A stretch of 64,000 nt of DNA. Source: Bacteroidaceae bacterium (lineage in GTDB: Bacteria > Bacteroidota > Bacteroidia > Bacteroidales > Bacteroidaceae). The translations under genes were made by a program, and so were the position numbers. The notes below the pieces were generated by a model, which was not told where the DNA came from, made no database searches, and saw only the letters and a list, made by a program, of their open reading frames with translations. Location of the stretch: contig JAILEU010000137.1 of the NCBI GenBank assembly GCA_024697785.1, positions 5,952-69,951 on the forward strand, in the 5' to 3' direction. The first letter of the stretch is position 1. Each line of letters starts with the position of its first letter. This document shows positions 17,964 to 64,000 of the stretch, one piece after another.

Positions 17964-18030
17964 TCAACTGGTCAACAAGACAACAAGACAACAAGACAAC
18001 AGGTCAACAAGACAACTGGTCATCAAGTAA
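17964..18030. repeat. tandem word repeat CAACAAGA / GGTCAACA
   Basis: caactggtcaacaagacaacaagacaacaagacaacaggtcaacaagacaactggtcatcaag. Confidence 0.9.
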
Positions 18031-18050
18031 ACAAAAAAAACGAAGAAACG

Positions 18051-46671: not shown

Positions 46672-49631
46672 TCTTCATTTTTCATTAAAATCTCTTTCTT
46701 GAGGAAGGCGGCGGTGTAGCCTTTGCCGGAGGCAGCGACTTCGGCGGGGGTGCCGGTGACGACGACTGTGCCGCCGCGACGGCCTCCCTCGGGTCCCATA
46801 TCGATGATGTGGTCGGCCTGACGGATGACGTCGAGGTTATGCTCGATGACGATAACGGTGTTGCCGCGATCCACCAACCGGCGCAGGACGGTCATCAGCA
46901 CGCGGATGTCCTCGAAGTGGAGGCCGGTGGTGGGCTCGTCGAGGATGTAGAGGGTGTGGCCGGTGTCGCGCTTGGCCAGCTCGGTGGCGAGCTTGACACG
47001 CTGGCTCTCGCCGCCCGAGAGGGTTGACGAGGGCTGGCCGAGCTTGATGTAGCCGAGGCCCACCTCCTGCAAAACCTTTATCTTATTAAGGATAGTGGGG
47101 ACGTTCTCGAAGAACTCCACCGCCTGGTTGATGGTCATGTCGAGGACGTCGGCAATGGACTTGCCCTTGAAGCGCACCTCGAGCGTCTCGTGGTTGTAGC
47201 GCTTGCCCTGACAGACCTCGCAGGGCACCATGACGTCGGGCAGGAAGTTCATCTCGATGGTCTTATATCCGTTGCCGGAGCAGGCTTCGCATCGTCCGCC
47301 ACTGATGTTGAACGAGAATCGTCCGGGCTTGTAGCCGCGCATCTTGGCTTCGGGCAGGCTGACGAAGAGATTGCGGATGTCGGAGAAGACGCCTGTGTAG
47401 GTGGCGGGGTTGGAGCGGGGTGTGCGGCCCAGGGGCGACTGATCGACCGTCACCACCTTGTCGATGTTGTCGAGCCCTTCGATATAATCGTAGGGCAGCG
47501 GCTCGCGAAGCGAACGGTAGAAGTGCTGCGAGAGGATGGGCTGGAGGGTGTCGTTGACGAGTGTCGATTTACCGCTGCCGCTGACGCCTGTGATGCAGAT
47601 GAGCTTGCCCAGGGGGAAGGTAACGGCGATGTCCTTGAGGTTGTTGCCGCGGCAGCCGAAGAGGGTGATGGACGTGCCGCCGGCCGTACGCCGCGCATAG
47701 CGCGGCTTGACGGGAGGGGCGGCATTTCCGGAGTCTCCGGAGTTTCCGGAATCTCCGGAATTACCTGAATTTCCGGCATTTCCGGCGGAACCGGCGACGT
47801 CCGTCGTGGCGGTGCCTTTGAGGTAGCGGGCGGTGAGGGTGTCGGCCTTGAGCAGCTCGTCGGGGGTGCCGGCAAAGACCACCGTGCCGCCCTTGCGCCC
47901 GGCGAAGGGGCCGAGGTCAATGACATAGTCGGCACTCAGCATCATGTCCTTGTCGTGCTCGACGACGATGACGGTGTTGCCGATGTCGCGCAGCTCCTTC
48001 AGCGAATGGATGAGGCGTTCGTTGTCGCGCTGGTGGAGGCCGATGCTGGGCTCGTCGAGGATGTAAAGCACGTTCACCAGCTGGGAGCCGATCTGTGTGG
48101 CGAGGCGAATGCGCTGGCTCTCGCCGCCGGAGAGCGACTGCGAGGGACGTCCCATGGCCAGATAGTCGAGGCCGACATCGAGCAGGAAGCGGAGGCGGAC
48201 ACGAATCTCCTTCAGAATCTCCTCGGCAATCTTCTGCTGGTTGCCGCTCAGCTGTTCGAGGGCCGTGCCGGTCCAGTCGTAGAGCTCGCTGATGTCCATA
48301 GCGGAGAGGTCAGCGATGTTCTTCCCGAGGATGCGGTAGCTGAGGGCCTCCTTGTTCAGCCGCGCGCCGCCACACTCGGGGCAGGTGCAGGTGCCCAGGA
48401 ACTGGTCGATCCACCTCTGCTGGGCGGCTGAGGGGTCGACATCCTGAATGCTCTGGAGATATTTGACGATGCCGTCGAACGAGATGAACATATCGGACTC
48501 GCTCAACAGCGTGGTCTGCACCTTGATACGGTCGGGGACGCCGTTGAAAAGTTCGTCCATCGTCTCTTCGTCGAGCTCGGCGACGGGGGTGTCAAGCGTG
48601 AAGTCGTGGCGGCGAAGCACGACGTCGAGGGTGCGGAAGATGAGCGTGTTCTTGTAAGGCCCGATGGGGAGGATGGCTCCCTGACGGATGGAGAGCGAGC
48701 GGTCGGGGATGACCTTGTCCATGTCCATGCGGGTGATGTAGCCCAGCCCTCGGCACTTGGGGCAGGCGCCCTGCGGCGAGTTGAACGAGAAGTTATGGGG
48801 TGCCGGTTCGCGGTAGGAAAGGCCCGTGACGGGGTCCATGAGGCGCTTGCTGTAGTGGCGCACGGCACCGGTCTCCTTGTCGAGCAGCATCAGCAGCCCG
48901 TCGCCCTGCACCATAGCGGCCGCCACGCTGTCGCGCAGCCGCTTGTCGTCCTTCGCCTGCACCTTCAGCTTGTCGACGACCACCTCGATGTCGTGGTTCT
49001 TGTAGCGGTCAACCTTCAGCCCGGGCACCGCCTCGCGGATTTCGCCATCGATGCGGACGTAGAGGTAGCCCTTGCGGCGCACCTGCTCGAACAGCTCGCG
49101 GTAGTGGCCCTTTCGGCTGCGCACCAGCGGAGCGAGTATCATCACCGCCCGCCCTTCGTACTCACCAAGGATAAGTTCGATGATTTTCTCCTCGGTGTAC
49201 TTCACCATACGCTCGCCGGACTCGTAGGAATAGGCGTCGGCAGCACGGGCATAGAGCAGACGGAAGTAGTCATAGACCTCGGTGGTCGTACCGACGGTGG
49301 AACGGGGATTTTTGTTTGTCGTTTTCTGCTCGATGGAGATGACGGGGCTGAGACCTGAGATCTTATCGACATCGGGCCGCCTGAGTCCGCCGAGGAAGTT
49401 GCGGGCATAGGCCGAGAAGGTCTCGATGTAGCGGCGCTGGCCTTCGGCGAAGAGGGTGTCGAAAGCAAGCGACGACTTGCCCGAGCCGCTCAGCCCCGTG
49501 ACGACGGTGAGCGACTTGTGGGGAATCACCACATCGATATTCTTCAGATTATGTTCGCGTGCGCCATAAACCTCGATGTCGGGTTCGTGGAGCGTCTCGT
49601 TGTCAAGGGTATTCGTTTCCAAGCTGTCCAA
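46668..49631 (-). CDS. uvrA: excinuclease ABC subunit UvrA
   Basis: 987-aa ORF with two ABC ATPase halves ([14 protein letters not shown]; [14 protein letters not shown]), signature LSGGESQR twice, and zinc modules ([20 protein letters not shown]). It contains an in-frame SG(N/D) repeat insertion. Confidence 0.95.
47722..47793 (-). repeat. in-frame 9-bp x8 tandem repeat inside uvrA (encodes [21 protein letters not shown])
   Basis: catttccgg agtctccgg agtttccgg aatctccgg aattacctg aatttccgg catttccgg cggaaccgg. Confidence 0.95.
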
Positions 49632-52662: not shown

Positions 52663-53493
52663 ATGACGCCCCGACAAATGAAGAATGAAGAATTAAAAAT
52701 GAAGAATAAAATGTTCCGTATGCAAGCTCTCCTTCGCAAAGCTGTCTATTTTTCATTTTTCATTAACTCTGTTTTCAAACAACGCGACTCGGCAAAACGT
52801 GCAAGCTCTTTTGCTCTCGCTGCTCTGTTTGTTTTTCATTTTTCATTATCAAGTGCCCAGGTGGGCGACGTGCGTCACGACCTGTGCTTTGGCCTGAGCG
52901 GCGGAGCCAACATGAGCTTTGTTGATTTCAGCCCCCGCATCAAGCAGACTATCCAGCCAGGCGCATGCGGAGGCATCGTCGTTCGCTATACCTCCGAGAA
53001 ATACTTCAGTATGCTCTGTGCCGCCCAGCTTGAGGTCAACTACACCCAGCGAGGCTGGAACGAGCTCATCGACGATGGTACGTCGAACACTTACTCCCGC
53101 ACCACGACCTACGTCGAGGTGCCCTTCCTCGCCCACCTCAGCTTCGGGAGCGAACACCGCGGCGCACAGTTCTTCCTCAATGCCGGCCCCGCCGTCGGGT
53201 GGTATCTGGGCGGCACCGAGCACTACGGCTACACGGCCGACCACCCCTGGGACGTATCGTCGCGCCCCAACCACGTCACCGCCCAGTACGGCCGCGCCGT
53301 CGAACGCCCCTTCGAGTACGGCATCGCCGGCGGTCTCGGCGTCGAGCTGCTCACCGCCGTCGGGCACTTCACCCTCGAAGGACGCTACTTCTTCGGCCTT
53401 TCCGACATCTACGGCAACAGCAAAGCCGACCCCTTCGGCCGTTCAGCCAACAACACCATCTCCGCCCGACTGGCATACCTCTTCGACTTATAA
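52663..53493 (+). CDS. outer-membrane beta-barrel protein (PorT/OMP_b-brl_2-like)
   Basis: Signal-like segment FALAALFVFHFSLSSAQ, alternating beta-strand pattern, and a terminal ...ISARLAYLFDL aromatic end. The true start is uncertain because the first about 60 codons read through TGAAGAAT / TTTTTCATT word repeats. Confidence 0.6.
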   Translation: MTPRQMKNEELKMKNKMFRMQALLRKAVYFSFFINSVFKQRDSAKRASSFALAALFVFHFSLSSAQVGDVRHDLCFGLSGGANMSFVDFSPRIKQTIQPGACGGIVVRYTSEKYFSMLCAAQLEVNYTQRGWNELIDDGTSNTYSRTTTYVEVPFLAHLSFGSEHRGAQFFLNAGPAVGWYLGGTEHYGYTADHPWDVSSRPNHVTAQYGRAVERPFEYGIAGGLGVELLTAVGHFTLEGRYFFGLSDIYGNSKADPFGRSANNTISARLAYLFDL

Positions 53494-53650
53494 GACTAAC
53501 AGACTGACAGACTTTTAGACTAACAGACTAACAGACTAACAGACTGACAGATAATTGTTCTGTGGACGGCTCAGTTGCTGGGCTATTATCTGCTAGTCTG
53601 GAAGTCTGTCAGTCTGTTAGTCTGCTAGTCTGAAGTCTAAAAAGAAGTCT
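53494..53650. repeat. palindromic spacer built from CTAACAGAC/CTGACAGAC words and their complements
   Basis: The left arm is actaacagactgacagacttttagactaacagactaacagactaacagactgacag. The right arm is ctgctagtctggaagtctgtcagtctgttagtctgctagtctgaagtct. It lies between convergent genes. Confidence 0.9.
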
Positions 53651-53655
53651 GAAGC

Positions 53656-54876
53656 CTAAAATGTCCTCTTCTTCAGCAGCCGGCCGATGGCCTTGTCGAG
53701 CGACTCTGTGGGTTCGATGATAGTATAGTCCTCCCAGAACGCCGTGTCGCGGAAGTAGTCCACCTTATCGAAGAAAGCATCACGCTGGTCAAACGAGTCG
53801 CGTCCACGTATGGGCTGCACGTCTGCGCCCGAGGTGATGCTCGTCACGGCCATCTCGCATAAGGCGGCAAACGAGGTGGCGAACAGGCGTCGGCGCCAGT
53901 CGCAGTTGAAGCGCATCGTCGCGCGGAGGTAGCTGATGCGCGTCAGGCCGTCGGCACCCGTGCGGTAGTCAACGACAAGCGACATCTCCTTCGGTCTGAA
54001 GCGCAGCCCCACAGGCTTCTTCACCAACAGCGCCCGGGTGGCCTTGAGAAGGTCGCGCATGTCGAGCTCCAGCTCGGCACGCGTGAAGGCCAGCGACTCC
54101 TGGTCGATGTACAGCCTGCCGTAGTAGAGCGCATAGTCCGCCGTCAGGCGGGGAGCGAGGCTGACGACATACTGCGGACGGTCGGCAATCGTCGTCGGCA
54201 CCTCCATCTTCAGCTCGTAAAGGTCGAGCTCGTCGGCGTCAAGCAGAAACTCGTCGTTCTTCACCACATCCAGTTGCACGGCATAGTTCGGTCCGCCCAT
54301 CACCTTCACGCCCAGCGTGTCGCTGGCCTTCTGGCTCATCAGCCTTCGCCCCTTGCGGATGGCTGTCCGGTCATGGACGACCGCGCGGCGATAGCCCGTC
54401 TTGTACATATCCACCACGCCCTCGGCCACGCTGATGTAGTTCTGCCGCTTCATCACCTTCTCCCGATAGAAGCAATGGTAGAGTTCCGGTTCGCGGCTGT
54501 AGTTGTCGGGGATGCGCTCCATGGCGGCCAGCACCAGCTGGCGTGCATCGCCGCCCATCACCAGCACCTCCTGCAACCGTATGGCCGCAGGCTTCAGCGC
54601 TATCAGCAGCGGTCCGTCGGGCTGTTCGGCAAGGACGATGAGCCGGGAAGCATAGCCGAGGTGCGACACCACGAGTTCGTCGCCCGCCGCATGGCTCTTC
54701 AGCGTAAAGAACCCGTCGTCGTTGGTGACAACAGTCAAGGAGCCCATTGCCACGCTGGCGCCGCCGACCGGCTCGCGGGTATCAGCATCCACAACCGTAC
54801 CGCTCACCACTACCCGCTGTGCCCATCCTACGACGGCCATCAGCAGCAACATCCCTATTAGCAGCGTCCTTTTCAT
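53656..54876 (-). CDS. carboxypeptidase-regulatory-like domain protein
   Basis: Signal peptide MKRTLLIGMLLLMAVVGWA, then the CarboxypepD_reg motif VSGTVVDADTREPVGGASVAMGSLTVVTNDDGFFTL. Confidence 0.7.
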   Translation of the reverse strand: MKRTLLIGMLLLMAVVGWAQRVVVSGTVVDADTREPVGGASVAMGSLTVVTNDDGFFTLKSHAAGDELVVSHLGYASRLIVLAEQPDGPLLIALKPAAIRLQEVLVMGGDARQLVLAAMERIPDNYSREPELYHCFYREKVMKRQNYISVAEGVVDMYKTGYRRAVVHDRTAIRKGRRLMSQKASDTLGVKVMGGPNYAVQLDVVKNDEFLLDADELDLYELKMEVPTTIADRPQYVVSLAPRLTADYALYYGRLYIDQESLAFTRAELELDMRDLLKATRALLVKKPVGLRFRPKEMSLVVDYRTGADGLTRISYLRATMRFNCDWRRRLFATSFAALCEMAVTSITSGADVQPIRGRDSFDQRDAFFDKVDYFRDTAFWEDYTIIEPTESLDKAIGRLLKKRTF

Positions 54877-54911: not shown

Positions 54912-55919
54912 TCAGCCTAAAAAGAATTCAGAGACGTTCTTGCTCCACGCGGCGTTGTGGATGACGCGCTTCACGTTGTGGTCGCGAAGGAAGCAGAGGT
55001 GGTAGCTGCGGTCCACAGTCATCTGATAGAGAGGCTTGTCGGATAGGTCGGCGAAGATAACCTCGCGATGCAGCCCCACGCTCTCCATAGCGTGGCGAAG
55101 GGAATACTCGAAGGCGCGGTCGCCGCCCGCGAAGGTATAGAGGTAGGTGGCGGTCTGTTCGGGGGTGACGAGTTCTACGGCAGCACGGCCATCCTTGAGG
55201 CCGGCAAACCAGAAGCCGTCGCCGTCCATGCGGTAAAGTCCCGTCAACATCGTGCAGCCGCAGTCTCGAATGAGACGATAGTTGTCGAGCCGTTCGCCCA
55301 GCCGCTCGTCCAGATGGCTGTCGAGCTCCTGATGAGCCCTTCGCCATTGCGCCGCCACGGTCTTGCGCGCCTTGCACATCTTCTCGAACACGGCGCTGGT
55401 GTCGCGGCCGATACGGCTGAAGCGGTATGTGTCGCCGGTGTCAAGGGTGAGCGTGATGCCGAAGTTCTCCTCTACGGGCTCGCCTGCGAAGCAGAGCGGT
55501 ATGCGGCGGGCCAGGTGGTCGTGCGGACAGAGAATGAGGGCATCGTCAAGCAGTTCGATTTTGGCGATGCCATGCTGTGCGGCGCCCTGCTCGGTAAAGG
55601 CGTAGTCGCCCTCGCCCGTGTAGAGGGGCGTACCCTCGGCAAACAGAGCCTCCTTGCTCCGCTGCATGTAGGCGTTCCAGAGGTTCTCGAAGAACGACTC
55701 CGTGTCGTGTCCCAGCTCCGAGAGTTGTATCTCGCCGGAGTTTGTGATAAGAAAAAGGTGGTAGCCCCGCAGGCGGAAATCCTGCAATTCGCAATAGTTG
55801 ATCTGGCGGAGCGACTTGCCGGCCGTAATGCCGAGCATCTCACGTCCGATGGCACACGTCGCAGGCTCTGGCCGCCCACCTTCCGTCAGCAGGCAAGTGT
55901 AGGTTCCCTTGTCGCTCAT
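54912..55919 (-). CDS. hypothetical protein
   Basis: ATG 55919 lies 4 nt after the stop of the zinc-ribbon gene. Codon usage is coherent and no motif is recognised. The longer track start (55982) would overlap the upstream gene. Confidence 0.6.
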   Translation of the reverse strand: MSDKGTYTCLLTEGGRPEPATCAIGREMLGITAGKSLRQINYCELQDFRLRGYHLFLITNSGEIQLSELGHDTESFFENLWNAYMQRSKEALFAEGTPLYTGEGDYAFTEQGAAQHGIAKIELLDDALILCPHDHLARRIPLCFAGEPVEENFGITLTLDTGDTYRFSRIGRDTSAVFEKMCKARKTVAAQWRRAHQELDSHLDERLGERLDNYRLIRDCGCTMLTGLYRMDGDGFWFAGLKDGRAAVELVTPEQTATYLYTFAGGDRAFEYSLRHAMESVGLHREVIFADLSDKPLYQMTVDRSYHLCFLRDHNVKRVIHNAAWSKNVSEFFLG

Positions 55920-55923
55920 GACG

Positions 55924-56670
55924 CTACAGTTTGGTGCCGCACTCGCCGCAGAACTTCGTGCCGGCCTCGTTCTCGTGGCCACACTTGGGGCACACGGCCT
56001 TGCCGCCTACGGGAGCGCCACACTCGCTGCAGAACTTCGTGCCCTGCTGCACCAACGCCCCGCAGTTGGGACACTTGAGCAGGCTGAGTGGTTTTCCGCA
56101 GTTGTTGCAGAACTTTCCCTGTCCGGCGGGTTTGCCGCAATGGGGGCAAATAGTTGTGCGCTCCTCGAGCTTGCCGTGCCAGACGGTGGCCGTCTCCGCC
56201 ATCTCGTCTATGTTACGGCGCATGGCCTGGCTGCGCGCCTTGGCCACATACGAACTCTCACGCGGAGCGCAGTTCGTGCAGAGGCCTTCCTCCTCGTTCC
56301 AGCAGTCGGCGCACACCCAGCTGTTGCACGAGGGACATTTCTGGAACTGCGGACGAACCTCCTCCTGAGCCTCGTCGAACGACTCCTCCTGCTCCTTGCG
56401 CCATTGGGGACTACGGTCCTCCATGCGGTCGCGCAGCATGTTGGCTCCGTTCTCGATGGCGTTGCTCAGTCCGCTCAGCTTGCCGCCGAACAGGTTGTTC
56501 AGCAAGCTGGCGCCACGGCCGATGCCCTCGGCACGTTTGCGGTTGTTGTAGGTCGTCGACTCTTTGAACGTACTCTTGAAGCCGTTTCCGCAGCAGTCGC
56601 AGTAAAACTCATACTGGAAGCCGGCATCGGTTGACAAATCGTTGTAATTTTTTGTGAAGCTGTGTAACAT
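55924..56670 (-). CDS. multi-zinc-ribbon protein
   Basis: At least six CxxC pairs (CDCCGNG, CPSCNSWVCADC..CTNC, CPHCG..CNNCG, CPNCG..CSECG, CPKCG..CGECG). The TACCTTTG box at 56704-56711 overlaps the longer track start, which favours ATG 56670. Confidence 0.7.
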   Translation of the reverse strand: MLHSFTKNYNDLSTDAGFQYEFYCDCCGNGFKSTFKESTTYNNRKRAEGIGRGASLLNNLFGGKLSGLSNAIENGANMLRDRMEDRSPQWRKEQEESFDEAQEEVRPQFQKCPSCNSWVCADCWNEEEGLCTNCAPRESSYVAKARSQAMRRNIDEMAETATVWHGKLEERTTICPHCGKPAGQGKFCNNCGKPLSLLKCPNCGALVQQGTKFCSECGAPVGGKAVCPKCGHENEAGTKFCGECGTKL

Positions 56671-56703
56671 GGCTGTTTTTGTAAGAAAGTTATTATTTGT
56701 GGG

Positions 56704-56711
56704 CAAAGGTA
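56704..56711 (-). promoter_or_regulatory. -7 box TACCTTTG upstream of zinc-ribbon operon
   Basis: Minus-strand TAnnTTTG 34 nt upstream of ATG 56670. Confidence 0.45.
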
Positions 56712-57019
56712 CAGGAAAATATAATAAAAAGGAAAAAAAACAGAAAAAAAATACTGCTGTCCGCTATAAGCCCCCCGATGGGGGCGTAATTAAGAATGGC
56801 CACTTGGCCACTTTTTTTATTTTTGTACCTTCAGAAGCATTATATAGACTCCTTAAATAAATAGATAGCGCAAATATAGCGCTTTTTCTGGAAAATATCT
56901 CTTTCTGTCAAAAAAAACTATTTTCCGCAAGGCTTGTGGGGATTGGCGGGAAAGACAGGGAGGGGACATCTTCTCTTTTCCTCTTCTTATTATAAAGGAA
57001 TTTCGCAAAAAAGTGCCAA

Positions 57020-57115
57020 CACCTACCTAAAGCAACATAACCAACTATGATACTGGGCGTTATCATAGGTAGGTGTTTGTCAAACACCTACCTAACACCT
57101 ACCTAACACCTACCC
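57020..57115. repeat. CACCTACCTA word array with a perfect 14-bp-stem hairpin
   Basis: taggtaggtgtttg-t-caaacacctaccta (57066-57094), followed by acacctaccta x2. One further copy lies at 57020-57029. Confidence 0.85.
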
Positions 57116-57300
57116 CAGCCGCTTCGCCACGCCATCCTTCGCCCCTCTGGTGACATCTGCTAGTATCGCATCTGGATACTTCTTCCGTATCGTCTCTGGC
57201 TTGACATGTAGTCGAGCCTGCTCACGCTCGGCAGAGCTGATACAAGCATCGCTCTGCACTCACTCAATCGCAGCCTTCTTTCGTTTTGATTCGATGATGA

Positions 57301-57772
57301 TCATAATTCTATTAATACAACCCAACGACCTTCTTTTCTGCCACCTTCACGCATTAGAGCCCCCATCCATTTCACGTTTTATGGTCTTTACCGAAACCTT
57401 TATCTTTTGGGGCATTTCTTGAATGGTTATAGTGTCATTTGCCTTCATTTCCTTAATCAAAAGCACTTGACGCTCAGACAGTTCTTTTGGGTCATCTTTT
57501 GGGCCATTACGACCCTGTTCAGAGTTGCTCACATTATTCCTCTGGAATGTCACACTAACTCCTCCGCAGAAGTTTTCCACCTTGGGCATAGGTAATCCTG
57601 CACTCTCAAAACCCTCACGAATCTTTTTGTAACCACGTCCCCAGGCATCTATAAAACCAGCCTTAAAGAAGGCGTACACATACAGATGCGTGTATGGGCC
57701 GATCACGTAGAAGTTTGGAATGAAGGAGAACTGCCTGCTAGTTACACACCTGAGACGATATTGGGACAACAT
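57301..57772 (-). pseudogene. 5'-truncated, frameshifted remnant of an AlbA_2/HATPase_c_4-type (RecG-like) transcriptional regulator
   Basis: Only the C-terminal about 160 aa remain: FKAGFIDAWGRGYKKIREGFESAGLPMPKVENFCGGVSVTFQR plus the wHTH LSERQVLLIKEMKANDTITIQEM. The expected tail (..LMREGGRKEGRWVVLIEL*) continues in a frame shifted by one nt after about 57360. Confidence 0.6.
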
Positions 57773-57894
57773 TCTTCACGCCAACGTAACAAGAATATAG
57801 CCAACGCCTGTATAGTTTTTATGAATTCTGCCACTCATAATCCCGTGTTCAGTTGTCGTTTTTGATAAGTGAGCTACTTATCTTGATGAGAGGA

Positions 57895-58140
57895 TTAAAT
57901 ATGCAAGTAGTCTGTTTCAAATATGATATAACCGTCATTTTTTTGAACCTTAGGTTCTTTTACCCAACACGGAAGTTTTTTTAATTCTTCAATAACTGTA
58001 GGGACATTTTCAACGACCAAATAATCTTTTTTTAAATCTTTACTTGTGGAATATGAAAAATCCACTCCACATTTCCTACAAATCTCAATAGCCTGTATAT
58101 TATAATACAGGTGGTCATGTTTAACACTTTTTTTTTCCAT
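57895..58140 (-). CDS. hypothetical small protein
   Basis: 81-aa AT-rich ORF, co-directional with the island operon. It has a single CxxC (CRKCG) and no family is recognised. Confidence 0.4.
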   Translation of the reverse strand: MEKKSVKHDHLYYNIQAIEICRKCGVDFSYSTSKDLKKDYLVVENVPTVIEELKKLPCWVKEPKVQKNDGYIIFETDYLHI

Positions 58141-58185
58141 AACTATTATTGTTGTTTTGTTTAATGTAAATAAAAACTTTCAGTT

Positions 58186-58416
58186 TTATAAATAAAGCTT
58201 GAAAATTCTTCGTTTCTCTCTTCTCGCTATATCATGCCAGTCTATAGAATAGCCCACAAAAAAAGAATCCTCTGTTATATACTTGCTTTCTTCATTCTTT
58301 AACTTAATAGAAACTGATTGAGACAATGACTGAAAACACATATTTCTACCTTTCTCTAGTTCCATAGCAAATGATTTCAGTTCCTCATTTACATAGTTCC
58401 TCATCCTGAATTCCAC
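58186..58416 (-). CDS. hypothetical small protein
   Basis: 76-aa AT-rich ORF, 168 nt downstream of the helicase stop. No family is recognised. Confidence 0.35.
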   Translation of the reverse strand: MEFRMRNYVNEELKSFAMELEKGRNMCFQSLSQSVSIKLKNEESKYITEDSFFVGYSIDWHDIARREKRRIFKLYL

Positions 58417-58583
58417 ATTTTCATATTATAATGAACTTATTCGGAAACAGCGATATGCAAACTGATAAAGGCCAAGCCGTTGCAACAACTTGCCCAATCT
58501 ATAATACTTATACAAGTCATTCTCTTCTTTGGGGGTCATAAAGACAGATTTATATATTTTACGTCTAGTGGAAAATGTAATAC

Positions 58584-61196
58584 TCAGTCTGACGATTTGG
58601 AACTATTGACCAAAATGTTTTCAAGATTCAAAAGACGCGCTTTCTTCTCAGAATTCATTTCTTCAAAATGTTCCATAACTTCATTGTGTGTTCCTAAGAA
58701 ATAGGAGATTTTATTTTCATATGTGATATATAATCGTTTCTTGGCTCTAGACATTGCAACATAAAGAACGCGTGCTTCTTCGTCAACATTTGTGGAATTT
58801 TTTGGCATTCTTCCATTTGTTATGTCATAAAGAATAACATTGTCAAATTCCAAACCTTTAGCCTTATGTATCGTCATAATAAACATACGTTCATTCAACA
58901 CGCCATTCTGGAAGAAATCTCCTTCGTTGAAAGTTCTAAATTCATATAAATGATTAACCAATTGGTGATTGAAATACACATCCTTCGCTGAATCTATGAC
59001 AACTTTGTTAAACAATTTCCTTATATAAGGGAAGAGTTTGATTTCTTTAATGATTTTTTGACTAACCATTTGATTATATATGTGGTTAAACTCGTAATCA
59101 AAGGTGTTCTCATTATTGATGGTAGCTGAGTACATCTTATTCATAGTATGCTGATATAAAAGCCAATATTTGTTCATCAATCTTCTCTGAACCTTCTTTA
59201 ATTCAGGATGAGAGATAAAGCTTGCCTGAACATCTACAAACTTTGACATTTTTTCATAGCAATAATCTGTGAGAGACTTTGTTGCTCTGATGTCATCTAA
59301 TGCATTATGAGAATTAACACCTTCAAGACCATAAGTTTCTAGGAGACTTTCCAATGTATGCTTTCTAAGGTTCGGATCTAACATTCTTGCCATTTTAAGA
59401 GTGTCCCAATATACTGGAGTCCTGAAAGTGACATTCTTTGTCCTTCTTGTGATATTATTTTCAAGGACATGAACATCGTAGTTCACATTATGACCTAACA
59501 ATTCAGCGTTGCCTATATAATTCACAAAAAAGTCAAATGCCTCTTCTGCTTCCATGAAATACTGGTTTTCTTTTTGTTTTTGTGTACCGTTGCTTCTTCT
59601 TTTATACTCTTCTACCATGGGATTAACAAGTCCATTATGGAGTGTGGGAGGGATCGTTTTGTCGTTCTGCAATTTAATAATAATATCCAATTCTGTGCCA
59701 GGAACGATCTTCCCATTTCTCATCTTCAAGGCTGCAATCTGAATAATGTCATCGTTAAATATGTCTAATCCTGTTGTCTCTGTGTCGAACAACACAATTT
59801 CCTTATCCTCATATGATTTGCAAAATTCAATAAAATAAGAACTGTTTTCATAGAACATCAGATCCAGTGGTGTTAATCCTATATCTCTCATTTTCTTGAT
59901 GCATCTTTTTGAGAGTTTCAACGTGTCAAGTGCTTTCGTTTGGTAAAGAATTCGTGCCCAATCAGAAAATCTTGTGTCATTTACGACCACGGAGAAATGA
60001 CTATACAATGTCTTAAAATCCACCAATTTGAAAACATCTCTTTTTGACAGCTTAATATGTGTGATATTGTGATTATCAAGAATTTCTGAGATTCTTTCTG
60101 CATCGTCATTTGTACGTACAAGGATTCCTACGGATTCTAAATCTTTCTCATTTTTAGTTTCTTCATATTTTTCTAGACTATTTAAATATAAGTTGCGTCC
60201 AAGTGTTGCAATAACATTTAGTTGGTCATCTCTACTATTACAATTTATCAGCATTAGTCCATCGTCTATATGCTGTTTGTTGTTTGTTCTTGGCAACAAG
60301 GTGGCATCATCAACTTTTAGTCTATAAATAGCATAGTTATTTAGCATGTCAAGCAAGTACATCGGTGAGCGGTAGTTGTTTGACAGTACGAAAAAGTTAT
60401 TACCTGCCTTTTCTTTTAGAGATACAATACTATCATGCTTCGCACCTAAGAATGAATATATAGCTTGTCTCTCATCACCAAGATAAACTACGGATTCATA
60501 GTCTTTCGCAACGAGTTTTTCTATAATGCCTAACTGAATTGGATATAGGTCTTGCACCTCATCAACTTGAATCCATTTGTAAGATGAATATTGATACTTA
60601 TGCTGATAGCCTTCTTCCATCAATGCCTTATAGGTAATTAACAGAATGTCATCAAAGTCTATTAACTTATTTTCTTCCTTGTACTTAATATACCTTTCAG
60701 CCAAGTCCCTTGTACTGCTATCAATGTAAGGTTCCCTACCGATAATCTCAAAAGGGAAACCATTGGACTTCATATAAATTGAAGCCGCAACATTTGTTGT
60801 TTTCATTATCTGCCATCCAGGGACTTGAGGCTTTTCCGTTAATTCTGCAATAATTTCTTCTTGCTCGGTATCATCCGCAATACCAACATCAATAGGGACT
60901 AAATCGTTTTCATAAATGAATCTTATGCAGAAGCGATGTAAGTTGCCAACGAAAAGGTCTGCCATCACATCACCAACAGTTTTTTTTATGCGTTCTTTCA
61001 TTTCTCGAGAAGCTCTGTTTGTAAATGTTAGGCACAGCATATCCCTGTAGTCAACGTTATAAATCTGATGAGAAAAAGCAACCCTATAACTAAGAATGTC
61101 GGTCTTTCCACATCCTGGAGCACCGAGGACGAGAGCATGGCCACTATTAAACTTTATGACCTCATTCTGTTTGTTATCAAAAACTTTATCTGCCAT
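58584..61196 (-). CDS. UvrD/Rep-family SF1 helicase with inserted DEDDh (DnaQ-like) 3'-5' exonuclease domain
   Basis: 870-aa ORF with helicase motifs in order: Walker A GAPGCGKT (aa 25-32), Ia LTFTNRASREM, II VDEVQD (211-216), III YLGDERQAIYSF, IV LSNNYRS (271-277), V MTIHKAKGLEFD (774-785), VI VLYVAMSRAKKRLYI (810-824). Between IV and V lie ExoI LFDTETTG (D471, E473), ExoII GHNVNYD (D574) and ExoIII HNALDD (H630, D635), corresponding to about nt 59262-59798. Confidence 0.9.
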   Translation of the reverse strand: MADKVFDNKQNEVIKFNSGHALVLGAPGCGKTDILSYRVAFSHQIYNVDYRDMLCLTFTNRASREMKERIKKTVGDVMADLFVGNLHRFCIRFIYENDLVPIDVGIADDTEQEEIIAELTEKPQVPGWQIMKTTNVAASIYMKSNGFPFEIIGREPYIDSSTRDLAERYIKYKEENKLIDFDDILLITYKALMEEGYQHKYQYSSYKWIQVDEVQDLYPIQLGIIEKLVAKDYESVVYLGDERQAIYSFLGAKHDSIVSLKEKAGNNFFVLSNNYRSPMYLLDMLNNYAIYRLKVDDATLLPRTNNKQHIDDGLMLINCNSRDDQLNVIATLGRNLYLNSLEKYEETKNEKDLESVGILVRTNDDAERISEILDNHNITHIKLSKRDVFKLVDFKTLYSHFSVVVNDTRFSDWARILYQTKALDTLKLSKRCIKKMRDIGLTPLDLMFYENSSYFIEFCKSYEDKEIVLFDTETTGLDIFNDDIIQIAALKMRNGKIVPGTELDIIIKLQNDKTIPPTLHNGLVNPMVEEYKRRSNGTQKQKENQYFMEAEEAFDFFVNYIGNAELLGHNVNYDVHVLENNITRRTKNVTFRTPVYWDTLKMARMLDPNLRKHTLESLLETYGLEGVNSHNALDDIRATKSLTDYCYEKMSKFVDVQASFISHPELKKVQRRLMNKYWLLYQHTMNKMYSATINNENTFDYEFNHIYNQMVSQKIIKEIKLFPYIRKLFNKVVIDSAKDVYFNHQLVNHLYEFRTFNEGDFFQNGVLNERMFIMTIHKAKGLEFDNVILYDITNGRMPKNSTNVDEEARVLYVAMSRAKKRLYITYENKISYFLGTHNEVMEHFEEMNSEKKARLLNLENILVNSSKSSD

Positions 61197-61206
61197 ATTG
61201 TTTAAT

Positions 61207-62763
61207 TTATAATTGAACGAAACAGCATCTGCCGGTTTCTTTCATCCAAGATTTATGTTCTTGATATGCTTTTTCATTTTCACATACCCATACAACTTTT
61301 GTTTTGAATCGTTTTGGCTTTTTGGGTTTAGGAGCATCTCCGTCTGTAAAGATAATAAGACCGTCATATTTTAGCTTTTTTTGTATAAAGTCAAAGATTG
61401 GTTGAAAACTCGTTCCTCCTCTTCCAACAATTTCAATTCTTTTCTTTGCCTTTTCAAAAGTCTGAACTTCGCTTAAACTGCAATCAAATTGTACAACATC
61501 TACATGTTCTACTCCGTATTTGAACAGTTTTCTTATAACCGAATAGAAATGTGTCAGTACTTCGTCTGATATTGAACCACTTACATCAACTGCAATCAAT
61601 ATATTCGTATCAAATCTACGTATGCTCCCCATGTTTTCAAAACCGGAACGTCTGTTTGGACGCATTCTTGTAAGATGCCTTTTCGATGATAAGATGCTAG
61701 CTCTAAATCCAGTTAAAGTTTTCCGGTAATCAATTTTTGCCTTAGTATTAGCAATAATTGTTTGAGCTAGGTTTCCTGCTAAACTCCCCCAACCAGCTCC
61801 GGATGACTCTATTTCTTCTATGATAGCATCTATCGTACAACTCATCATGCTATCTTCTTCCCATAGTGATGATAGGTCTGCTGATGGTATAGTTTTATTC
61901 TTTGGCTGATTATCGAATATTCTTTTTTCTTTAGGGTGTCCTCCTTGACGGTTTTGCTCTGAAGGTATATTGGGATTATCAGCATTTGAATCATCGGCTT
62001 CTGAATTTTGGTTCGGTTTATTTGTTTTTGAAGAAGAACTTTTGGGAATGCGCATTATAGAGCCATCTGCCAATGTCAGTACAAAGTAATTATCGTCAGA
62101 ATCGTTTGATTGCGTTGAACCTTTGAAAGGTTCTTCATCGTTAGATGCGGACGAACCATTAGGCTCTATACTTGAGGAAGAATCCTCACCTGTCTTGCTG
62201 TTCTTGTCGGTGTTTTTGTCGGTTTCTGAATCATCATCAAAACTATTACCTTCTTGATTGGGAGACGTTTCGTTGACTTTCTCTTTCTCGTTTTCTATTT
62301 TGCTTGTATCGCTATTATTATCAGTACTTTGAATTTCCACATCTCCATTTTCATCTGGCACAAGACCTTTTCCTTCAATTCGCATAGAATACCATTCATA
62401 ACTCTCATTTTCAGGCAAATTGAAGTCTGATGGTTTGGGCAGATTAATGTCTGTAAAATCATAATTATCAGATAGCACCAGGTTACTTCCTAATGCCATT
62501 GACTTTCTTTTGCATCCATCTGGCTGTCTTTCATATGGATGTTTTAAAATTATACGGATGGCTTCAGCCTTTAAGCAATTTTCTAATTGACTGTCAGATA
62601 ATTTGTTTAATTGTTCTGGATTATACTCAATTTTTCCCTTACCACACCTGAAAGGGCATGACATATTGGCGTTCAGAACCATTTCATGCGCTAATACCGT
62701 CATTAGCAATGCTGGTTCTGTTAAATACCATTTATCAATAATCTGTTTAATCCTTGAATCCAT
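61207..62763 (-). CDS. VWA-domain protein of the DUF2201 type (peptidase-like N-domain, degenerate) that partners MoxR ATPases
   Basis: 518-aa ORF. C-terminal VWA fold with MIDAS DVSGS (D393, S395, S397), T451 and D474, preceded by GWGSLAG...RPNRR. The N-domain (WYLTEPAL...IEYNPE) fits my recollection of DUF2201_N, but the expected HExxH reads AEAIR (aa 66-70). A roughly 150-aa acidic/Ser/Asn-rich linker lies between the two domains. Confidence 0.85.
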   Translation of the reverse strand: MDSRIKQIIDKWYLTEPALLMTVLAHEMVLNANMSCPFRCGKGKIEYNPEQLNKLSDSQLENCLKAEAIRIILKHPYERQPDGCKRKSMALGSNLVLSDNYDFTDINLPKPSDFNLPENESYEWYSMRIEGKGLVPDENGDVEIQSTDNNSDTSKIENEKEKVNETSPNQEGNSFDDDSETDKNTDKNSKTGEDSSSSIEPNGSSASNDEEPFKGSTQSNDSDDNYFVLTLADGSIMRIPKSSSSKTNKPNQNSEADDSNADNPNIPSEQNRQGGHPKEKRIFDNQPKNKTIPSADLSSLWEEDSMMSCTIDAIIEEIESSGAGWGSLAGNLAQTIIANTKAKIDYRKTLTGFRASILSSKRHLTRMRPNRRSGFENMGSIRRFDTNILIAVDVSGSISDEVLTHFYSVIRKLFKYGVEHVDVVQFDCSLSEVQTFEKAKKRIEIVGRGGTSFQPIFDFIQKKLKYDGLIIFTDGDAPKPKKPKRFKTKVVWVCENEKAYQEHKSWMKETGRCCFVQL

Positions 62764-62764
62764 T

Positions 62765-63847
62765 CTATGCCTTTATTCCACTTGTGTATTTAACGACCTC
62801 TCTATATACTGTGAAGGCTTCAGACGCAACAAAATGAGCTGCTTCTTCATATTTTTTGTCATTCAAATAATGGGCAAAACTTGCCAGCACTTCGTTTTTA
62901 CTATAACTTTTAAGATATCCTATATACTTTTCAAGGTTGCTGGCAACTTTCTTATTATTTGAAAGAACATCAAGGTGGCTTTCAAGAAACATGAATATAT
63001 CCTCATTCAGGATTGTAAACTGATGAAGGGACAAATCAGATAACAATGGAACTATCAACTCAAAATCATTCAAGAGATCTTTTGCATCAACAGTTTTGTT
63101 CTGTCCAATATTTTTGATAAAAAAGTTTGTTGCCTTAACACCAACGATGCTAGACATTAACAACACATCATTCTTCTCTAAGGTTTTTTTTCCTTTTATA
63201 ACATCAGAAACTCTTTTCCATGCGCGTCTGTCTGGAGTCTTATCTAGTCCAGTATCTTCACCCTCTTCTAAGGAAGGGTCTTTATCCAACCATATGCCAT
63301 TATCCCTTATAAATGAGATTACTCTTGAATCCAAATCTTTTTTCTGTGCCCAAATAATCCATTCTTCAACAGAGGGTTCAAACCTAAAGATGTTGAATCG
63401 GGATACAAGGGCAGGGTCTAAGTCTGTGAGTTGATACTCTTCACCTTCATTTACTGCAGCGATTATTCGACTGCCTTTTGGCAAGTGCTTCCCAGCCAAT
63501 TTCCTATTAAGAGCTAAATCCATAATCGTTTGTAATACCTCAGGGCGAGCACGATTCAACTCATCTAAGAACAAAACAATAGGTTTGCCATCAACAGGAA
63601 ACCAATATGGCGGCATAAACTCGGTTTTGCCTGTTTTCTCATCTTTGTTTGGGAGGCCAATAAGGTCTCCAGGGTCTGACATTTGGCCTAGGAACAAGGG
63701 AATGACAATCATCCCTTTCTGCGAGAAGTATTCGGTTAATATTTCCGACTTACCGATACCATGCCTTCCAGCTAACATGATATTTTGGTCTGCTGGAATG
63801 TTGTCCAACATATATTTCAACTGAGTAATGTTAACTTTAACGTTCAT
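62765..63847 (-). CDS. MoxR-like AAA+ ATPase (AAA_5 type)
   Basis: 360-aa ORF with Walker A GRHGIGKS (K33), Walker B VLFLDELNRA (D95, E96), sensor-1 IIAAVN and arginine finger ALVSRF. The C-terminal about 190 aa is a helical extension with no recognised motif. Confidence 0.9.
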   Translation of the reverse strand: MNVKVNITQLKYMLDNIPADQNIMLAGRHGIGKSEILTEYFSQKGMIVIPLFLGQMSDPGDLIGLPNKDEKTGKTEFMPPYWFPVDGKPIVLFLDELNRARPEVLQTIMDLALNRKLAGKHLPKGSRIIAAVNEGEEYQLTDLDPALVSRFNIFRFEPSVEEWIIWAQKKDLDSRVISFIRDNGIWLDKDPSLEEGEDTGLDKTPDRRAWKRVSDVIKGKKTLEKNDVLLMSSIVGVKATNFFIKNIGQNKTVDAKDLLNDFELIVPLLSDLSLHQFTILNEDIFMFLESHLDVLSNNKKVASNLEKYIGYLKSYSKNEVLASFAHYLNDKKYEEAAHFVASEAFTVYREVVKYTSGIKA

Positions 63848-63912
63848 TTTCTGTATGTATTTCTATTTACTCTAATTGTGCAATCTTTTTTTCAGCATTG
63901 ATTTTTCAACCG

Positions 63913-63920
63913 CAAAGATA
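63913..63920 (-). promoter_or_regulatory. -7 box TATCTTTG upstream of the AAA+/VWA/helicase operon
   Basis: Minus-strand TAnnTTTG 66 nt upstream of ATG 63847, in an AT-rich spacer. Confidence 0.45.
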
Positions 63921-64000
63921 ATAAGTTTATGCGAATTCTTTGTTCGTTCACAGATTTTTTTTATTCATTACTGAAATCATGTTAAATTCTCTCATCATTG

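What the first reader, a model, noticed from the sequence alone, without database searches (positions are those of the whole stretch)
57270..64000. Abrupt compositional break: island of about 30% GC in a chromosome of about 60% GC
Hand counts give 23% and 32% GC for lines 59041 and 61201. Typical lines left of 57.1 kb give 55-65%. The word-repeat and palindrome spacers that fill nearly all intergenic gaps in the high-GC part are absent from the island. All island ORFs use AT-rich codons and lie on one strand. This indicates recent acquisition from a low-GC donor (typical Bacteroides/Prevotella or Firmicutes composition). The right boundary and any integrase lie outside the window.
Basis: seen in the sequence. 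Interest (0 to 1): 0.65.

Follow-up and report, generated by a model that had tools for sequence, protein, structure and literature searches.

The report
Foreign AT-rich island with defence-like operon
A 7-kb stretch of 36% GC DNA inside a 59% GC rumen Bacteroidales genome is a horizontally acquired segment. Its cargo is a conserved, uncharacterised three-gene operon (MoxR-type ATPase, VWA adaptor, helicase-exonuclease) that elsewhere sits among anti-phage defence genes.

Summary
The compositional break is real. Window 57,116 to about 64,100 is 36.1% GC, against 58.8% for the rest (14 SD below any host 7-kb window). Coding GC3 is 0.24-0.37 in the island and about 0.8 in host genes. The right boundary lies only about 100 bp past the window end. 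The next gene is a host SIMPL gene, and there is no integrase, tRNA or flanking repeat.

The core is a tight minus-strand operon: AAA_5 ATPase (NorQ/CbbQ-like fold), DUF2201 VWA protein (MIDAS intact, zincin HExxH lost) and UvrD helicase with an inserted DEDDh exonuclease.

The same three genes recur in at least 12 other rumen/gut Bacteroidales contexts. Homology stops exactly at the operon ends. The neighbours are restriction-modification, GmrSD, SoFic, NERD-UvrD and conjugative-transposon genes.

Operon GC here equals that of copies in lower-GC hosts, so the sequence is not ameliorated. A sister species has a different AT-rich insert at the same SIMPL junction, which marks a hotspot.

PADLOC, NCBIfam and the searched literature have no model or name for this triad. 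Verdict: an ordinary genomic island carrying a candidate new variant of MoxR-vWA conflict systems. The defence function is inferred, not tested.

The parts
56671..57115 (.). Host-type AT-rich intergenic spacer (38% GC). It holds the word repeat AACACCTACCT x3 plus an inverted copy at 57,020-57,114. This is the last host sequence before the island.
   Evidence: TRF array at 57,083-57,114. The motif is enriched: 5 matches against 0.43 expected. A homologous repeat architecture occurs in related species L007 at 14,620-14,720. Host spacers elsewhere are 25-54% GC.
57116..57346 (-). 50% GC fragment encoding only the last ~43 codons of an unidentified gene (...KPETIRKKYPDAILADVTRGAKDGVAKRLG*). Gene debris at the left edge of the foreign DNA.
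   Evidence: Six-frame translation. GC 0.502. No match in any fetched locus.
57347..57865 (.). Scrambled pseudogene of an AlbA_2/HATPase_c_4-type ATP-binding regulator. The C-terminal part is on the minus strand (57,347-57,772). An upstream piece is on the plus strand (57,686-57,865). GC is 43%.
   Evidence: Pfam HATPase_c_4 partial hit, E=1.2e-4. phrog_12156 C-terminal hit. Opposite-strand pieces are seen in the translation.
57895..58140 (-). 81-aa ORFan (29% GC), function unknown.
   Evidence: No Pfam, PADLOC, NCBIfam or PHROG hit. Its cluster has a single member, restricted to this organism.
58186..58416 (-). 72-76-aa ORFan (32% GC), function unknown.
   Evidence: No credible family hit. 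Its cluster has 4 members, all from the same or similar assemblies.
58584..61196 (-). Gene 3 of the operon: an 870-aa UvrD-family SF1 helicase. A DEDDh (RNase T/DnaQ-like) 3'-5' exonuclease domain is inserted at aa 468-640.
   Evidence: Pfam UvrD-helicase 3e-42, UvrD_C 6e-46, RNase_T 7e-20. PADLOC RTasHel/GajB/DEDDh. Walker A GAPGCGKT, DEVQD and exonuclease residues D471, E473, D574, H630 and D635 are invariant in 7 orthologues.
61207..62763 (-). Gene 2: a 518-aa VWA adaptor. It has an N-terminal zincin-like domain whose HExxH is degenerated to AEAIR, a ~180-aa acidic/Ser-rich disordered linker with a conserved beta-hairpin (FVLTLADGSIMRIPK), and a C-terminal DUF2201 VWA domain with an intact MIDAS motif (D393-x-S395-x-S397, T451, D474).
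   Evidence: Pfam DUF2201 8e-16, DUF2201_N weak. Alignments A2 and A4. hhalign across the motif helix, E=2.9e-4, probability 40%. AF2 model: N-domain pLDDT 82-90, linker below 40. Foldseek hits to VWA/integrin I domains.
62765..63847 (-). Gene 1: a 360-aa MoxR-class AAA+ ATPase (Pfam AAA_5). Walker A is GRHGIGKS and Walker B is LFLDELNRA. One nucleotide separates it from gene 2.
   Evidence: Pfam AAA_5 1.6e-8. phrog_1297 4e-50. PDB sequence hit to midasin only. AF2 pLDDT 80. Foldseek top hits are NorQ (9qh8, 9qh4; NorQ-NorD VWA complexes) and CbbQ 6l1q, E about 2e-9.
63913..63920 (-). Match to the Bacteroides -7 promoter consensus TAnnTTTG (TATCTTTG), 52 nt upstream of the gene-1 ATG.
   Evidence: L001 1,899-1,906, equal to window 63,913-63,920. 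The motif is not enriched overall (6 found, 8.6 expected), so this is suggestive only.
63948..64000 (-). 3' part of a 46-aa ORF (63,948-64,088; 30% GC). It lies in the AT-rich leader that ends the island at about 64,100, just outside the window.
   Evidence: L001 1,731-1,871. Annotated as a hypothetical protein, K6B45_08650, in an NCBI MAG. GC returns to 54-57% from 64,101.

Best explanation
Window 57,116 to about 64,100 is a roughly 7-kb mosaic of horizontally acquired DNA. It lies in a variable hotspot between a host SIMPL gene on the right and a host zinc-ribbon gene on the left, in a rumen Bacteroidales MAG.

Its functional payload is a self-contained 5.27-kb operon that circulates in the mobile defence-island and conjugative-element gene pool of rumen and gut Bacteroidales. 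The rest is decaying neighbour-gene debris and ORFans brought in with it or left by earlier occupants. It carries no recombinase of its own. It probably arrived as part of a larger element or by recombination and was then trimmed.

Likely mechanism of the payload (inferred, not tested): the MoxR-class AAA+ hexamer docks on the VWA domain of the adaptor, as NorQ docks on NorD. The adaptor uses its MIDAS site and its catalytically dead zincin-like domain to bind a client or trigger. ATP-driven remodelling then licenses or restrains the UvrD-DEDDh helicase-exonuclease. That enzyme unwinds invading (phage or plasmid) DNA and degrades it from the 3' end.
For: Composition: 36.1% against 58.8% GC, 14 SD below host windows. 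GC3 is 0.24-0.37 against about 0.8.

Boundaries and authenticity: L001 equals the window with 1 mismatch in 6,789 nt. Contigs from four different samples (L001-L004) cross the right junction into 57% GC host DNA.

Foreignness:
- Four congeneric genomes (about 80% nt identity, syntenic to the left) have no island proteins.
- Sister species L116 (SIMPL 90% aa) has a different 32-42% GC insert, an LRR protein, starting right after the SIMPL stop. Homology to the window ends exactly there.

Payload is a discrete mobile unit:
- Nucleotide homology to 10 other loci runs only from the gene-1 start (63,847-63,852) to the gene-3 stop (58,579-58,596).
- All 15 further loci examined whose AAA_5 is at least 64% identical and that have enough downstream sequence carry VWA plus helicase. 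One of them is interrupted by an IS.
- Gaps between the genes are 1 and 10 nt.

Not ameliorated: GC is 0.358 here against 0.353-0.358 in the close relatives.

Defence context elsewhere: type III REase 5e-269, GmrSD-like HEC-06, SoFic, NERD+UvrD, type I/IIG methyltransferases, DUF4238, Tra genes.

Components are catalytically intact and conserved. AAA_5 has a NorQ/CbbQ-like fold.

The helicase-exonuclease recurs as the terminal gene of another VWA-based operon, TerY-P-like (kinase, VWA, PP2C, FGE-sulfatase, helicase), on a rumen Prevotella plasmid and on an IMG/VR contig.
Against: There is no integrase, transposase, tRNA or flanking direct or inverted repeat of 11 nt or more, so the insertion mechanism is unknown.

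There is no clean empty site. In the four congeners the gene beyond the zinc-ribbon gene is a YgiQ-like radical-SAM gene that is absent from the window. The island therefore sits at a synteny breakpoint.

The left junction (56.9-57.2 kb) is supported only by the MAG contig itself. Logan contigs stop at 56,891-56,904 and at 57,212.

The closest sampled operon is only about 90% identical in nucleotides, so the donor is not identified.

The window branch shows a mild excess of AT-to-GC changes (99 against 52). It is not clearly different from another branch (58 against 41).

The defence function rests on gene neighbourhood and domain logic alone. The AAA_5 and VWA proteins hit no PADLOC model. 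MoxR-VWA pairs also act as plain assembly chaperones (NorQD, CbbQO) and occur in phages (phrog_1297/1314; PMC7824862). At 60% AAA_5 identity or less, the same pair is linked to quite different genes, including ClpP, RtcB and other AAA proteins.
Confidence: 0.7

Rival explanations
1. Assembly or binning artefact. The window comes from a MAG contig, and the AT-rich segment may have been joined wrongly to high-GC DNA.
For: The source is an NCBI MAG. Logan contigs break on both sides of 56.9-57.2 kb, so the left junction has no independent support.
Against: Four assemblies from different samples cross the right junction with 100% identity (L001-L004). Both flanks have the same 57-59% GC and the lineage-specific word-repeat spacers. 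The spacer next to the left junction has a homologue in a related species near the same genes. AT-rich DNA flanked by host DNA on both sides would need two independent misjoins.
Confidence: 0.05
2. Ancient resident region whose low GC is maintained by selection, not a recent transfer.
For: There are no mobility genes or att-like repeats. There is a slight AT-to-GC excess on the window branch.
Against: It is absent from four congeners next to the left-flank genes, and a different insert occupies the site in sister species L116. The operon is found at 80-90% nt identity in other genera with unrelated flanks. Its GC is identical to copies in lower-GC hosts.
Confidence: 0.03
3. The island is foreign, but the operon is not an immune system. 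It may be a DNA repair or replication-restart module, or a maintenance module of conjugative elements or phages. In that case the MoxR-VWA pair acts as an assembly chaperone.
For: UvrD/PcrA/Rep are repair and replication helicases, and DnaQ-like exonucleases proofread. MoxR-VWA pairs are chaperones in NorQD and CbbQO and in jumbo phages (PMC7824862). In X. brevis the operon abuts Tra genes. Related pairs sit next to ClpP, RtcB and AAA genes.
Against: The distribution is sporadic and strain-variable, with unrelated flanks. It is repeatedly embedded among restriction-modification, GmrSD, SoFic and NERD-UvrD genes. No close relative of the helicase was found in IMG/VR. One copy is inactivated by an IS, as is common for costly defence genes.
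Confidence: 0.22

Closest known systems
MoxR-vWA centred 'ternary' conflict systems (Kaur, Burroughs, Iyer & Aravind 2020, eLife, PMC7159879; see also PMC12839542)
   Same: A MoxR-class AAA+ ATPase sits next to a vWA protein that carries an often catalytically inactive peptidase domain, plus a third component. The systems are sporadic and prone to HGT. Predicted logic: ATP-driven remodelling gates an effector.
   Different: The third gene here is a UvrD-DEDDh helicase-exonuclease, not a VMAP or iSTAND sensor. That paper does not mention UvrD or an exonuclease. The hosts here are gut and rumen Bacteroidales rather than multicellular actinobacteria or cyanobacteria.
NorQ-NorD and CbbQ-CbbO MoxR/VWA chaperone pairs
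   Same: They are the best structural matches to the AAA_5 protein. The partner is a VWA protein with a MIDAS site.
   Different: Those pairs mature nitric oxide reductase or reactivate Rubisco and are chromosomal housekeeping genes. Sequence identity is only 15-20%. The adaptor here has a dead zincin domain and a long disordered acidic linker.
Phage MoxR-(metallopeptidase)vWA pair (PHROG 1297 + 1314; jumbo and N4-like phages; Iyer et al. 2021, PMC7824862)
   Same: The two-gene architecture is the same and the families are homologous (E=4e-50 and 1e-35).
   Different: The canonical DUF2201_N homologues aligned here (three from bacterial plasmids) keep HExxH, and the jumbo-phage pair is predicted to act in virion assembly with peptidolytic processing (PMC7824862). 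There is no helicase partner, and identity is only 24-31%.
Gabija (GajA-GajB) and other helicase-nuclease defence systems (Hachiman, Nhi, Hna)
   Same: A UvrD-family helicase is coupled to a nuclease activity. The helicase hits PADLOC GajB models (E down to 4e-56).
   Different: There is no GajA (OLD/TOPRIM) partner. The nuclease is a DEDDh exonuclease inserted inside the helicase. The accessory genes are MoxR and VWA.
TerY-P (VWA + PP2C phosphatase + Ser/Thr kinase) defence system
   Same: It is also VWA-based. On Prevotella sp. E2-28 plasmid a TerY-P-like operon ends with a 35%-identical UvrD-DEDDh helicase.
   Different: There is no kinase or phosphatase here. The VWA protein belongs to another family (DUF2201) and is driven by an AAA+ motor.
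Classical genomic or defence island
   Same: Deviant composition, sporadic distribution, a hotspot location and defence-type cargo.
   Different: There is no integrase, tRNA target or direct repeats. It is very small (7 kb) and partly decayed.

Membership tests
Horizontally acquired genomic island | Base composition and codon usage deviate from the host | tested here: met
   36.1% against 58.8% GC. GC3 is 0.24-0.37 against about 0.8.
Horizontally acquired genomic island | Absent from the same locus in close relatives, or variable occupancy | tested here: met
   It is absent next to the left-flank genes in L006-L009. A different AT-rich insert follows SIMPL in L116. Caveat: synteny is broken, so no clean empty site was found.
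Horizontally acquired genomic island | Mobility signature: integrase or transposase, tRNA target, flanking direct repeats | tested here: not met
   No tRNA. No recombinase domain in any island ORF. No repeat of 11 nt or more between the ends. The right flank consists of host genes.
MoxR-class AAA+ ATPase | AAA_5-type P-loop with Walker A and B; fold like NorQ, CbbQ or MoxR; adjacent VWA partner | tested here: met
   Pfam AAA_5. G27, G30, G32-K33-S34 and D95-E96 are invariant. Foldseek top hits are NorQ and CbbQ. VWA follows AAA_5 in 73 of 73 loci.
McrB (type IV restriction GTPase, also Pfam AAA_5) | McrC-type PD-(D/E)xK partner and an N-terminal DNA-binding domain | tested here: not met
   The partner is a VWA protein and there is no N-terminal extension. 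No McrB structure is among the top 50 fold matches.
VWA domain (MIDAS-bearing) | DxSxS ... T ... D metal-ion-dependent adhesion site | tested here: met
   D393, S395, T451 and D474 are invariant and S397 is nearly invariant in 28 sequences. The fold matches VWA/integrin I domains.
DUF2201_N zincin metallopeptidase | HExxH zinc-binding catalytic motif | tested here: not met
   The motif is AE(A/I/V)(I/L)R in all 28 family members, while canonical homologues have HE(L/V)LH in the aligned position. The domain relationship itself is only weakly supported (hhalign probability 40%, E=2.9e-4; Pfam E=0.004).
UvrD/PcrA/Rep SF1 helicase | Helicase motifs I, II and III and 1A/2A domains | tested here: met
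   Pfam UvrD-helicase and UvrD_C. GAPGCGKT, DEVQD and GDERQAIY are invariant. Scores are far below the NCBIfam equivalog cut-offs for UvrD, PcrA and Rep, so it is a paralogue and not the housekeeping enzyme.
DEDDh 3'-5' exonuclease | Asp-Glu-Asp-Asp plus His catalytic residues | tested here: met
   D471, E473, D574, H630 and D635 are invariant. Pfam RNase_T 7e-20.
Gabija | GajA (ATPase-TOPRIM/OLD nuclease) encoded next to GajB | tested here: not met
   No GajA hit. The neighbours are AAA_5 and VWA.
MoxR-vWA ternary conflict system sensu Kaur et al. 2020 | MoxR plus vWA plus a VMAP or iSTAND third component with effector domains | tested here: inconclusive
   The MoxR and vWA parts are met. The third gene is a helicase-exonuclease that the paper does not describe. 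VMAP and iSTAND models were not available to test.
Validated anti-phage defence system | Protection against phage or plasmid when expressed; a model in defence databases | not testable with these tools
   No PADLOC 2.0 or NCBIfam model exists for genes 1 and 2. No paper was found describing the triad. Newer DefenseFinder releases could not be queried.

The most novel reading that the evidence does not exclude
The AAA_5 / dead-zincin-VWA / UvrD-DEDDh triad is a previously undescribed anti-phage or anti-plasmid immune system of gut and rumen Bacteroidales. In it a MoxR-type remodelling motor and its MIDAS adaptor act as the sensor and switch for a processive helicase-exonuclease effector. The same MoxR-VWA core would be re-used with other effectors (ClpP, RtcB and AAA partners) as a modular platform.
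Probability: 0.4. Interest if true: 0.65.

Novelty: new variant of a known kind. Interest (0 to 1): 0.45.

Why it matters
The GC island itself is textbook horizontal transfer. It confirms that even high-GC rumen Bacteroidales draw on the AT-rich mobile gene pool shared with Prevotella.

The cargo is the more useful part. It is a compact three-gene operon under purifying selection, seen in dozens of rumen and human-gut protein clusters. It always sits among restriction and other defence genes, yet the defence and annotation libraries searched have no model for two of its three proteins.

If it is an immune system, it would give a first experimentally tractable case of a MoxR-VWA motor controlling a nuclease-helicase. 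It would also extend the predicted MoxR-vWA conflict systems into the Bacteroidales, the dominant gut phylum, where few defence systems have been tested.

Tried and rejected
- tRNA and Rfam scans of the whole window found nothing.
- A search for att-like direct or inverted repeats between the two island ends gave only chance 9-10-mers.
- I looked for a clean empty site. The exact zinc-ribbon protein occurs only on short Logan contigs that stop at 56,891-56,904. The four nearest genomes have a different upstream neighbour, YgiQ. SIMPL relatives have other inserts. The result is a hotspot, not an empty site.
- I tried to retrieve the 95.9-kb source contig and a 9.4-kb Logan contig that might span the left junction. 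They were not returned, and the look-ups are now exhausted.
- Close relatives of the helicase in IMG/VR: none. With an alignment, one 35% relative appeared in a different operon.
- Plasmid and phage BLAST of the VWA and AAA_5 proteins gave only distant (24-32%) pairs.
- PDB sequence search of the VWA protein gave no hit.
- A fold search of the VWA model recovered only the VWA domain. The N-terminal domain could not be searched separately.
- Small ORFs and gene debris against all fetched loci gave no homologues.
- McrBC-like and Gabija-like readings were rejected because the defining partners are missing.
- The sigma-70 promoter scan was uninformative: 21 found against 25.9 expected.

Full report
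**1. The observation**

A 1-kb GC profile is 50-69% across window 1-57,000 and 32-37% from 58,000 to the end. At 200-nt resolution the fall begins at about 56,600. There is a bump to 53% at 57,100-57,300, then 26-44% up to 64,000.

Exact figures:
- Host 1-56,670 is 0.588.
- Host 7-kb windows have mean 0.588, sd 0.016 and minimum 0.559.
- Island 1-kb windows never exceed 0.381.

Thirty long host ORFs have GC 0.61 ± 0.025 and GC3 mostly 0.76-0.94. Island genes have GC 0.29-0.38 and GC3 0.24-0.37.

Tandem Repeats Finder returns 60 rows, and overlapping rows with different periods describe the same array. Fifty-seven rows, with periods of 7-67 nt, fall in window 1-57.1 kb, mostly in the host intergenic gaps. 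The last is at 57,083-57,114. Only two weak hits lie inside island coding sequence. All substantial island ORFs are on the minus strand. The mean is about 36% rather than 30%.

**2. Boundaries**

The island AAA_5 protein occurs on Logan contigs from one sequencing project (SRR15145236-50). The 8,607-bp contig L001 equals window 57,212-64,000 with a single mismatch and continues to 65,818. Beyond the window, GC stays near 30% for about 100 bp, which covers a 46-aa ORF at 63,948-64,088. It then returns to 54-57% at about 64,100.

Next come a spacer with host-style word repeats, a SIMPL-domain gene (64,221-64,994, minus strand, GC3 0.81) and another high-GC gene. Contigs from three further samples (L002-L004) also cross this junction at 100% identity.

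On the left, 56,671-57,115 (38% GC) is a host-type spacer. It carries the repeat AACACCTACCT x3 plus an inverted copy. A homologous arrangement occurs in a related species close to the same genes, and host spacers elsewhere are 25-54% GC. Foreign DNA therefore starts at about 57,116 and the island is about 7.0 kb.

No tRNA, Rfam family, recombinase domain or end repeat of 11 nt or more is present.

The left junction itself (56.9-57.2 kb) is not covered by any independent contig I could fetch. Logan contigs end at 56,891-56,904 and at 57,212. A 9.4-kb Logan contig exists but could not be retrieved.

**3. Content**

From left to right:
- A 50% GC stub encoding only the last ~43 codons of some gene (57,116-57,346).
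- Pieces of an AlbA_2/HATPase_c_4-type gene in opposite orientations (57,347-57,865, 43% GC).
- Two ORFans of 81 and 72-76 aa, found only in this organism.
- A tight operon on the minus strand: gene 1 at 62,765-63,847, gene 2 at 61,207-62,763 and gene 3 at 58,584-61,196. The gaps between them are 1 and 10 nt.

The stepwise GC (50, 43, 30, 36, 30%) points to a mosaic rather than a single clean insertion.

**4. The operon proteins**

Gene 1 is a Pfam AAA_5 ATPase. It has no PADLOC or NCBIfam model. It matches phage family phrog_1297 over its full length (4e-50). An AlphaFold model built on 23 homologues (pLDDT 80) is most similar to NorQ, in hexamers complexed with the NorD VWA domain, and to the Rubisco activase CbbQ (E about 2e-9). 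This places it in the MoxR class, not with McrB.

Gene 2 has a DUF2201 VWA domain with an intact MIDAS motif. It also has a long disordered acidic/serine-rich linker that contains a conserved hairpin, and a well-folded N-terminal domain (pLDDT 82-90). Canonical DUF2201 proteins have the zincin motif HE(L/V)LH. At the aligned position, all 28 members of this subfamily have AE(A/I/V)(I/L)R, so peptidase activity is lost. H26, C36, H75 and C84 are invariant. The domain homology itself is only moderately supported (hhalign E=2.9e-4, probability 40%).

Gene 3 is a UvrD-family helicase with a DEDDh exonuclease inserted in the C-terminal half. All helicase and exonuclease catalytic residues are invariant in seven orthologues. 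It scores far below the cut-offs for housekeeping UvrD, PcrA and Rep. Its best PADLOC hits are the RT-associated helicase and GajB models.

**5. The operon elsewhere**

AAA_5 homologues at 57-94% identity are numerous in rumen and gut assemblies. Named examples include Xylanibacter brevis and Porphyromonas.

Context look-ups for six of them at 65-94% identity all show the same three genes in the same order. Nucleotide homology with the window runs from the start codon of gene 1 (63,847-63,852) to the stop of gene 3 (58,579-58,596) and nowhere else. Identity is 80-90% for the close relatives.

The neighbours differ every time:
- an HSDR_N fragment;
- type IIG and type III restriction-modification genes (REase_III 5e-269);
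- a GmrSD-like protein;
- a McrB-like ATPase with a cytosine methylase;
- SoFic, NERD+UvrD, DUF4238 and SNase;
- in X. brevis, Tra genes of a conjugative transposon.

The operon is 33-42% GC everywhere, inside hosts whose core genes are 45-53% GC.

A metagenome scan with an AAA_5 alignment returned 80 loci. VWA follows AAA_5 in 73 of 73 loci with at least 1.3 kb of downstream sequence. The helicase is present only where AAA_5 identity is 64% or more: L121, L123, L124, L125, and L120 with an IS110-like insertion in the helicase. At 60% or less the pair has other partners: a classical AAA protein upstream and a ~183-aa protein downstream, a triple-AAA protein, or ClpP with RtcB.

The helicase-exonuclease also recurs on its own. 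It ends a TerY-P-like operon (kinase, VWA, PP2C, FGE-sulfatase) on a sheep-rumen Prevotella plasmid and on an IMG/VR contig. It sits beside Fic and RhuM genes on a Phocaeicola vulgatus plasmid.

**6. Is it a recent acquisition?**

The four nearest genomes in the species-representative collection are rumen Bacteroidales MAGs at about 80% nucleotide identity. They keep gene order to the left of the zinc-ribbon gene and have high-GC DNA with none of the island proteins on the other side. Their neighbour there is a YgiQ-like radical-SAM gene that the window lacks.

A closer relative of the right flank is L116 (SIMPL 90% aa, 83% nt). It has a different 32-42% GC insert encoding an LRR protein directly after the SIMPL stop codon. 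Homology with the window ends exactly at that codon. More distant relatives have yet other genes there.

The site is therefore a hotspot with changing AT-rich occupants, and the window's island lies at a synteny breakpoint.

The operon's GC here (0.358) is the same as in copies from lower-GC hosts. Polarised singleton changes on the window branch favour AT to GC (99 against 52). Another branch shows 58 against 41, so any amelioration is slight. The nearest sampled copy is about 90% identical, so the actual donor has not been sampled.

**7. Interpretation**

Shown:
- a foreign, unameliorated 7-kb segment at a variable site;
- a discrete, conserved, catalytically intact three-gene operon that moves between unrelated contexts rich in defence genes;
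- a MoxR-class fold for gene 1 and an obligatory link to the VWA protein;
- loss of the zincin motif.

Inferred:
- the pair works like NorQ-NorD, with a hexameric motor docking on the VWA/MIDAS adaptor;
- the pair gates the helicase-exonuclease, which would unwind and degrade invading DNA.

This resembles the MoxR-vWA 'ternary' conflict systems predicted by Kaur et al. (PMC7159879; also PMC12839542). Those systems have inactive peptidase domains on the vWA component. That paper does not describe a UvrD or exonuclease partner.

Phage MoxR-(metallopeptidase)vWA pairs are thought to be assembly chaperones (PMC7824862). A non-immune role therefore remains possible.

Searches of the paper library for DUF2201, MoxR/vWA/UvrD and DEDDh/UvrD found no description of this triad.

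**8. Verdict**

- the GC is 36%, not 30%;
- the left edge is graded, starting at about 57,116;
- the right edge is only about 100 bp beyond the window;
- there is no integrase.

The island as such is ordinary. Its cargo is a candidate new variant of MoxR-vWA conflict systems and deserves an experimental test. The source appears to be an NCBI MAG labelled Bacteroidaceae bacterium (locus tag K6B45_08650, contig 95,863 bp). The left junction should be checked against reads.

Noticed in passing
window 1-57,114 (e.g. 1,302-1,367; 7,713-7,812; 17,957-18,034; 47,720-47,785; 53,485-53,551): Intergenic gaps of the host genome are filled with short-period (7-24 nt) tandem 'word' repeats, each gap with its own unit. 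TRF returns 57 rows in this part, with overlapping rows describing the same array. The same style is seen in related species L007 at 15,160-15,460. Their function and origin are unknown.
   Followed up: partly
window 54,912-56,670 (minus strand): A zinc-ribbon protein (248 aa) and its 335-356-aa partner form an adjacent pair. The zinc-ribbon protein recurs at 44-94% identity in Bacteroidales, Lachnospiraceae, Oscillospiraceae, Actinomycetota, Methanomassiliicoccales and Bathyarchaeia MAGs. The partner was checked and found adjacent only in the 24 closest loci, all Bacteroidales or Bacillota. This may be a two-gene module of unknown function that moves across domains.
   Followed up: partly
L007 11,750-15,550 and L008 (related species): A 3.7-kb insert of 42-50% GC lies between the homologues of window genes 54,912-55,982 and 53,656-54,876. 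The window lacks it. It ends in the same 'ACACTTACC' word-repeat architecture as window 57,020-57,114.
   Followed up: partly
L116 9,426-13,500: A sister species has a different AT-rich (32-42% GC) insert immediately after the SIMPL stop codon. It encodes an 867-aa LRR_5 protein and a 264-aa protein. This is the same junction as the window's island.
   Followed up: partly
L201 (Prevotella sp. E2-28 plasmid) 1-11,700; L107 1,895-10,625: A long operon: Ser/Thr kinase, VWA, PP2C, three hypothetical proteins, FGE-sulfatase-like, UvrD-DEDDh helicase-exonuclease, FtsK. It is a TerY-P-like system with the same effector type as the window's operon.
   Followed up: partly
L182-L193 (human gut contigs) and L131-L177 (rumen contigs): AAA_5-VWA pairs at 54-60% identity to the window's pair lack the helicase. 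Their conserved partners differ instead. One set has ClpP upstream and RtcB downstream. Another has a 568-aa classical AAA protein upstream and a ~183-aa protein downstream. A third has a 935-aa triple-AAA protein with an M48 peptidase nearby.
   Followed up: partly
L120 3,064-4,370: In a human-gut copy of the triad (AAA_5 87% identical), the helicase gene is interrupted after about 43 codons by an IS110-like transposase gene.
   Followed up: no
window 56,905-57,211: Logan assemblies from several samples all break on both sides of this 300-bp stretch, which contains the 11-mer repeat. This suggests copy-number or strain variation there. No other copy exists in the window.
   Followed up: partly
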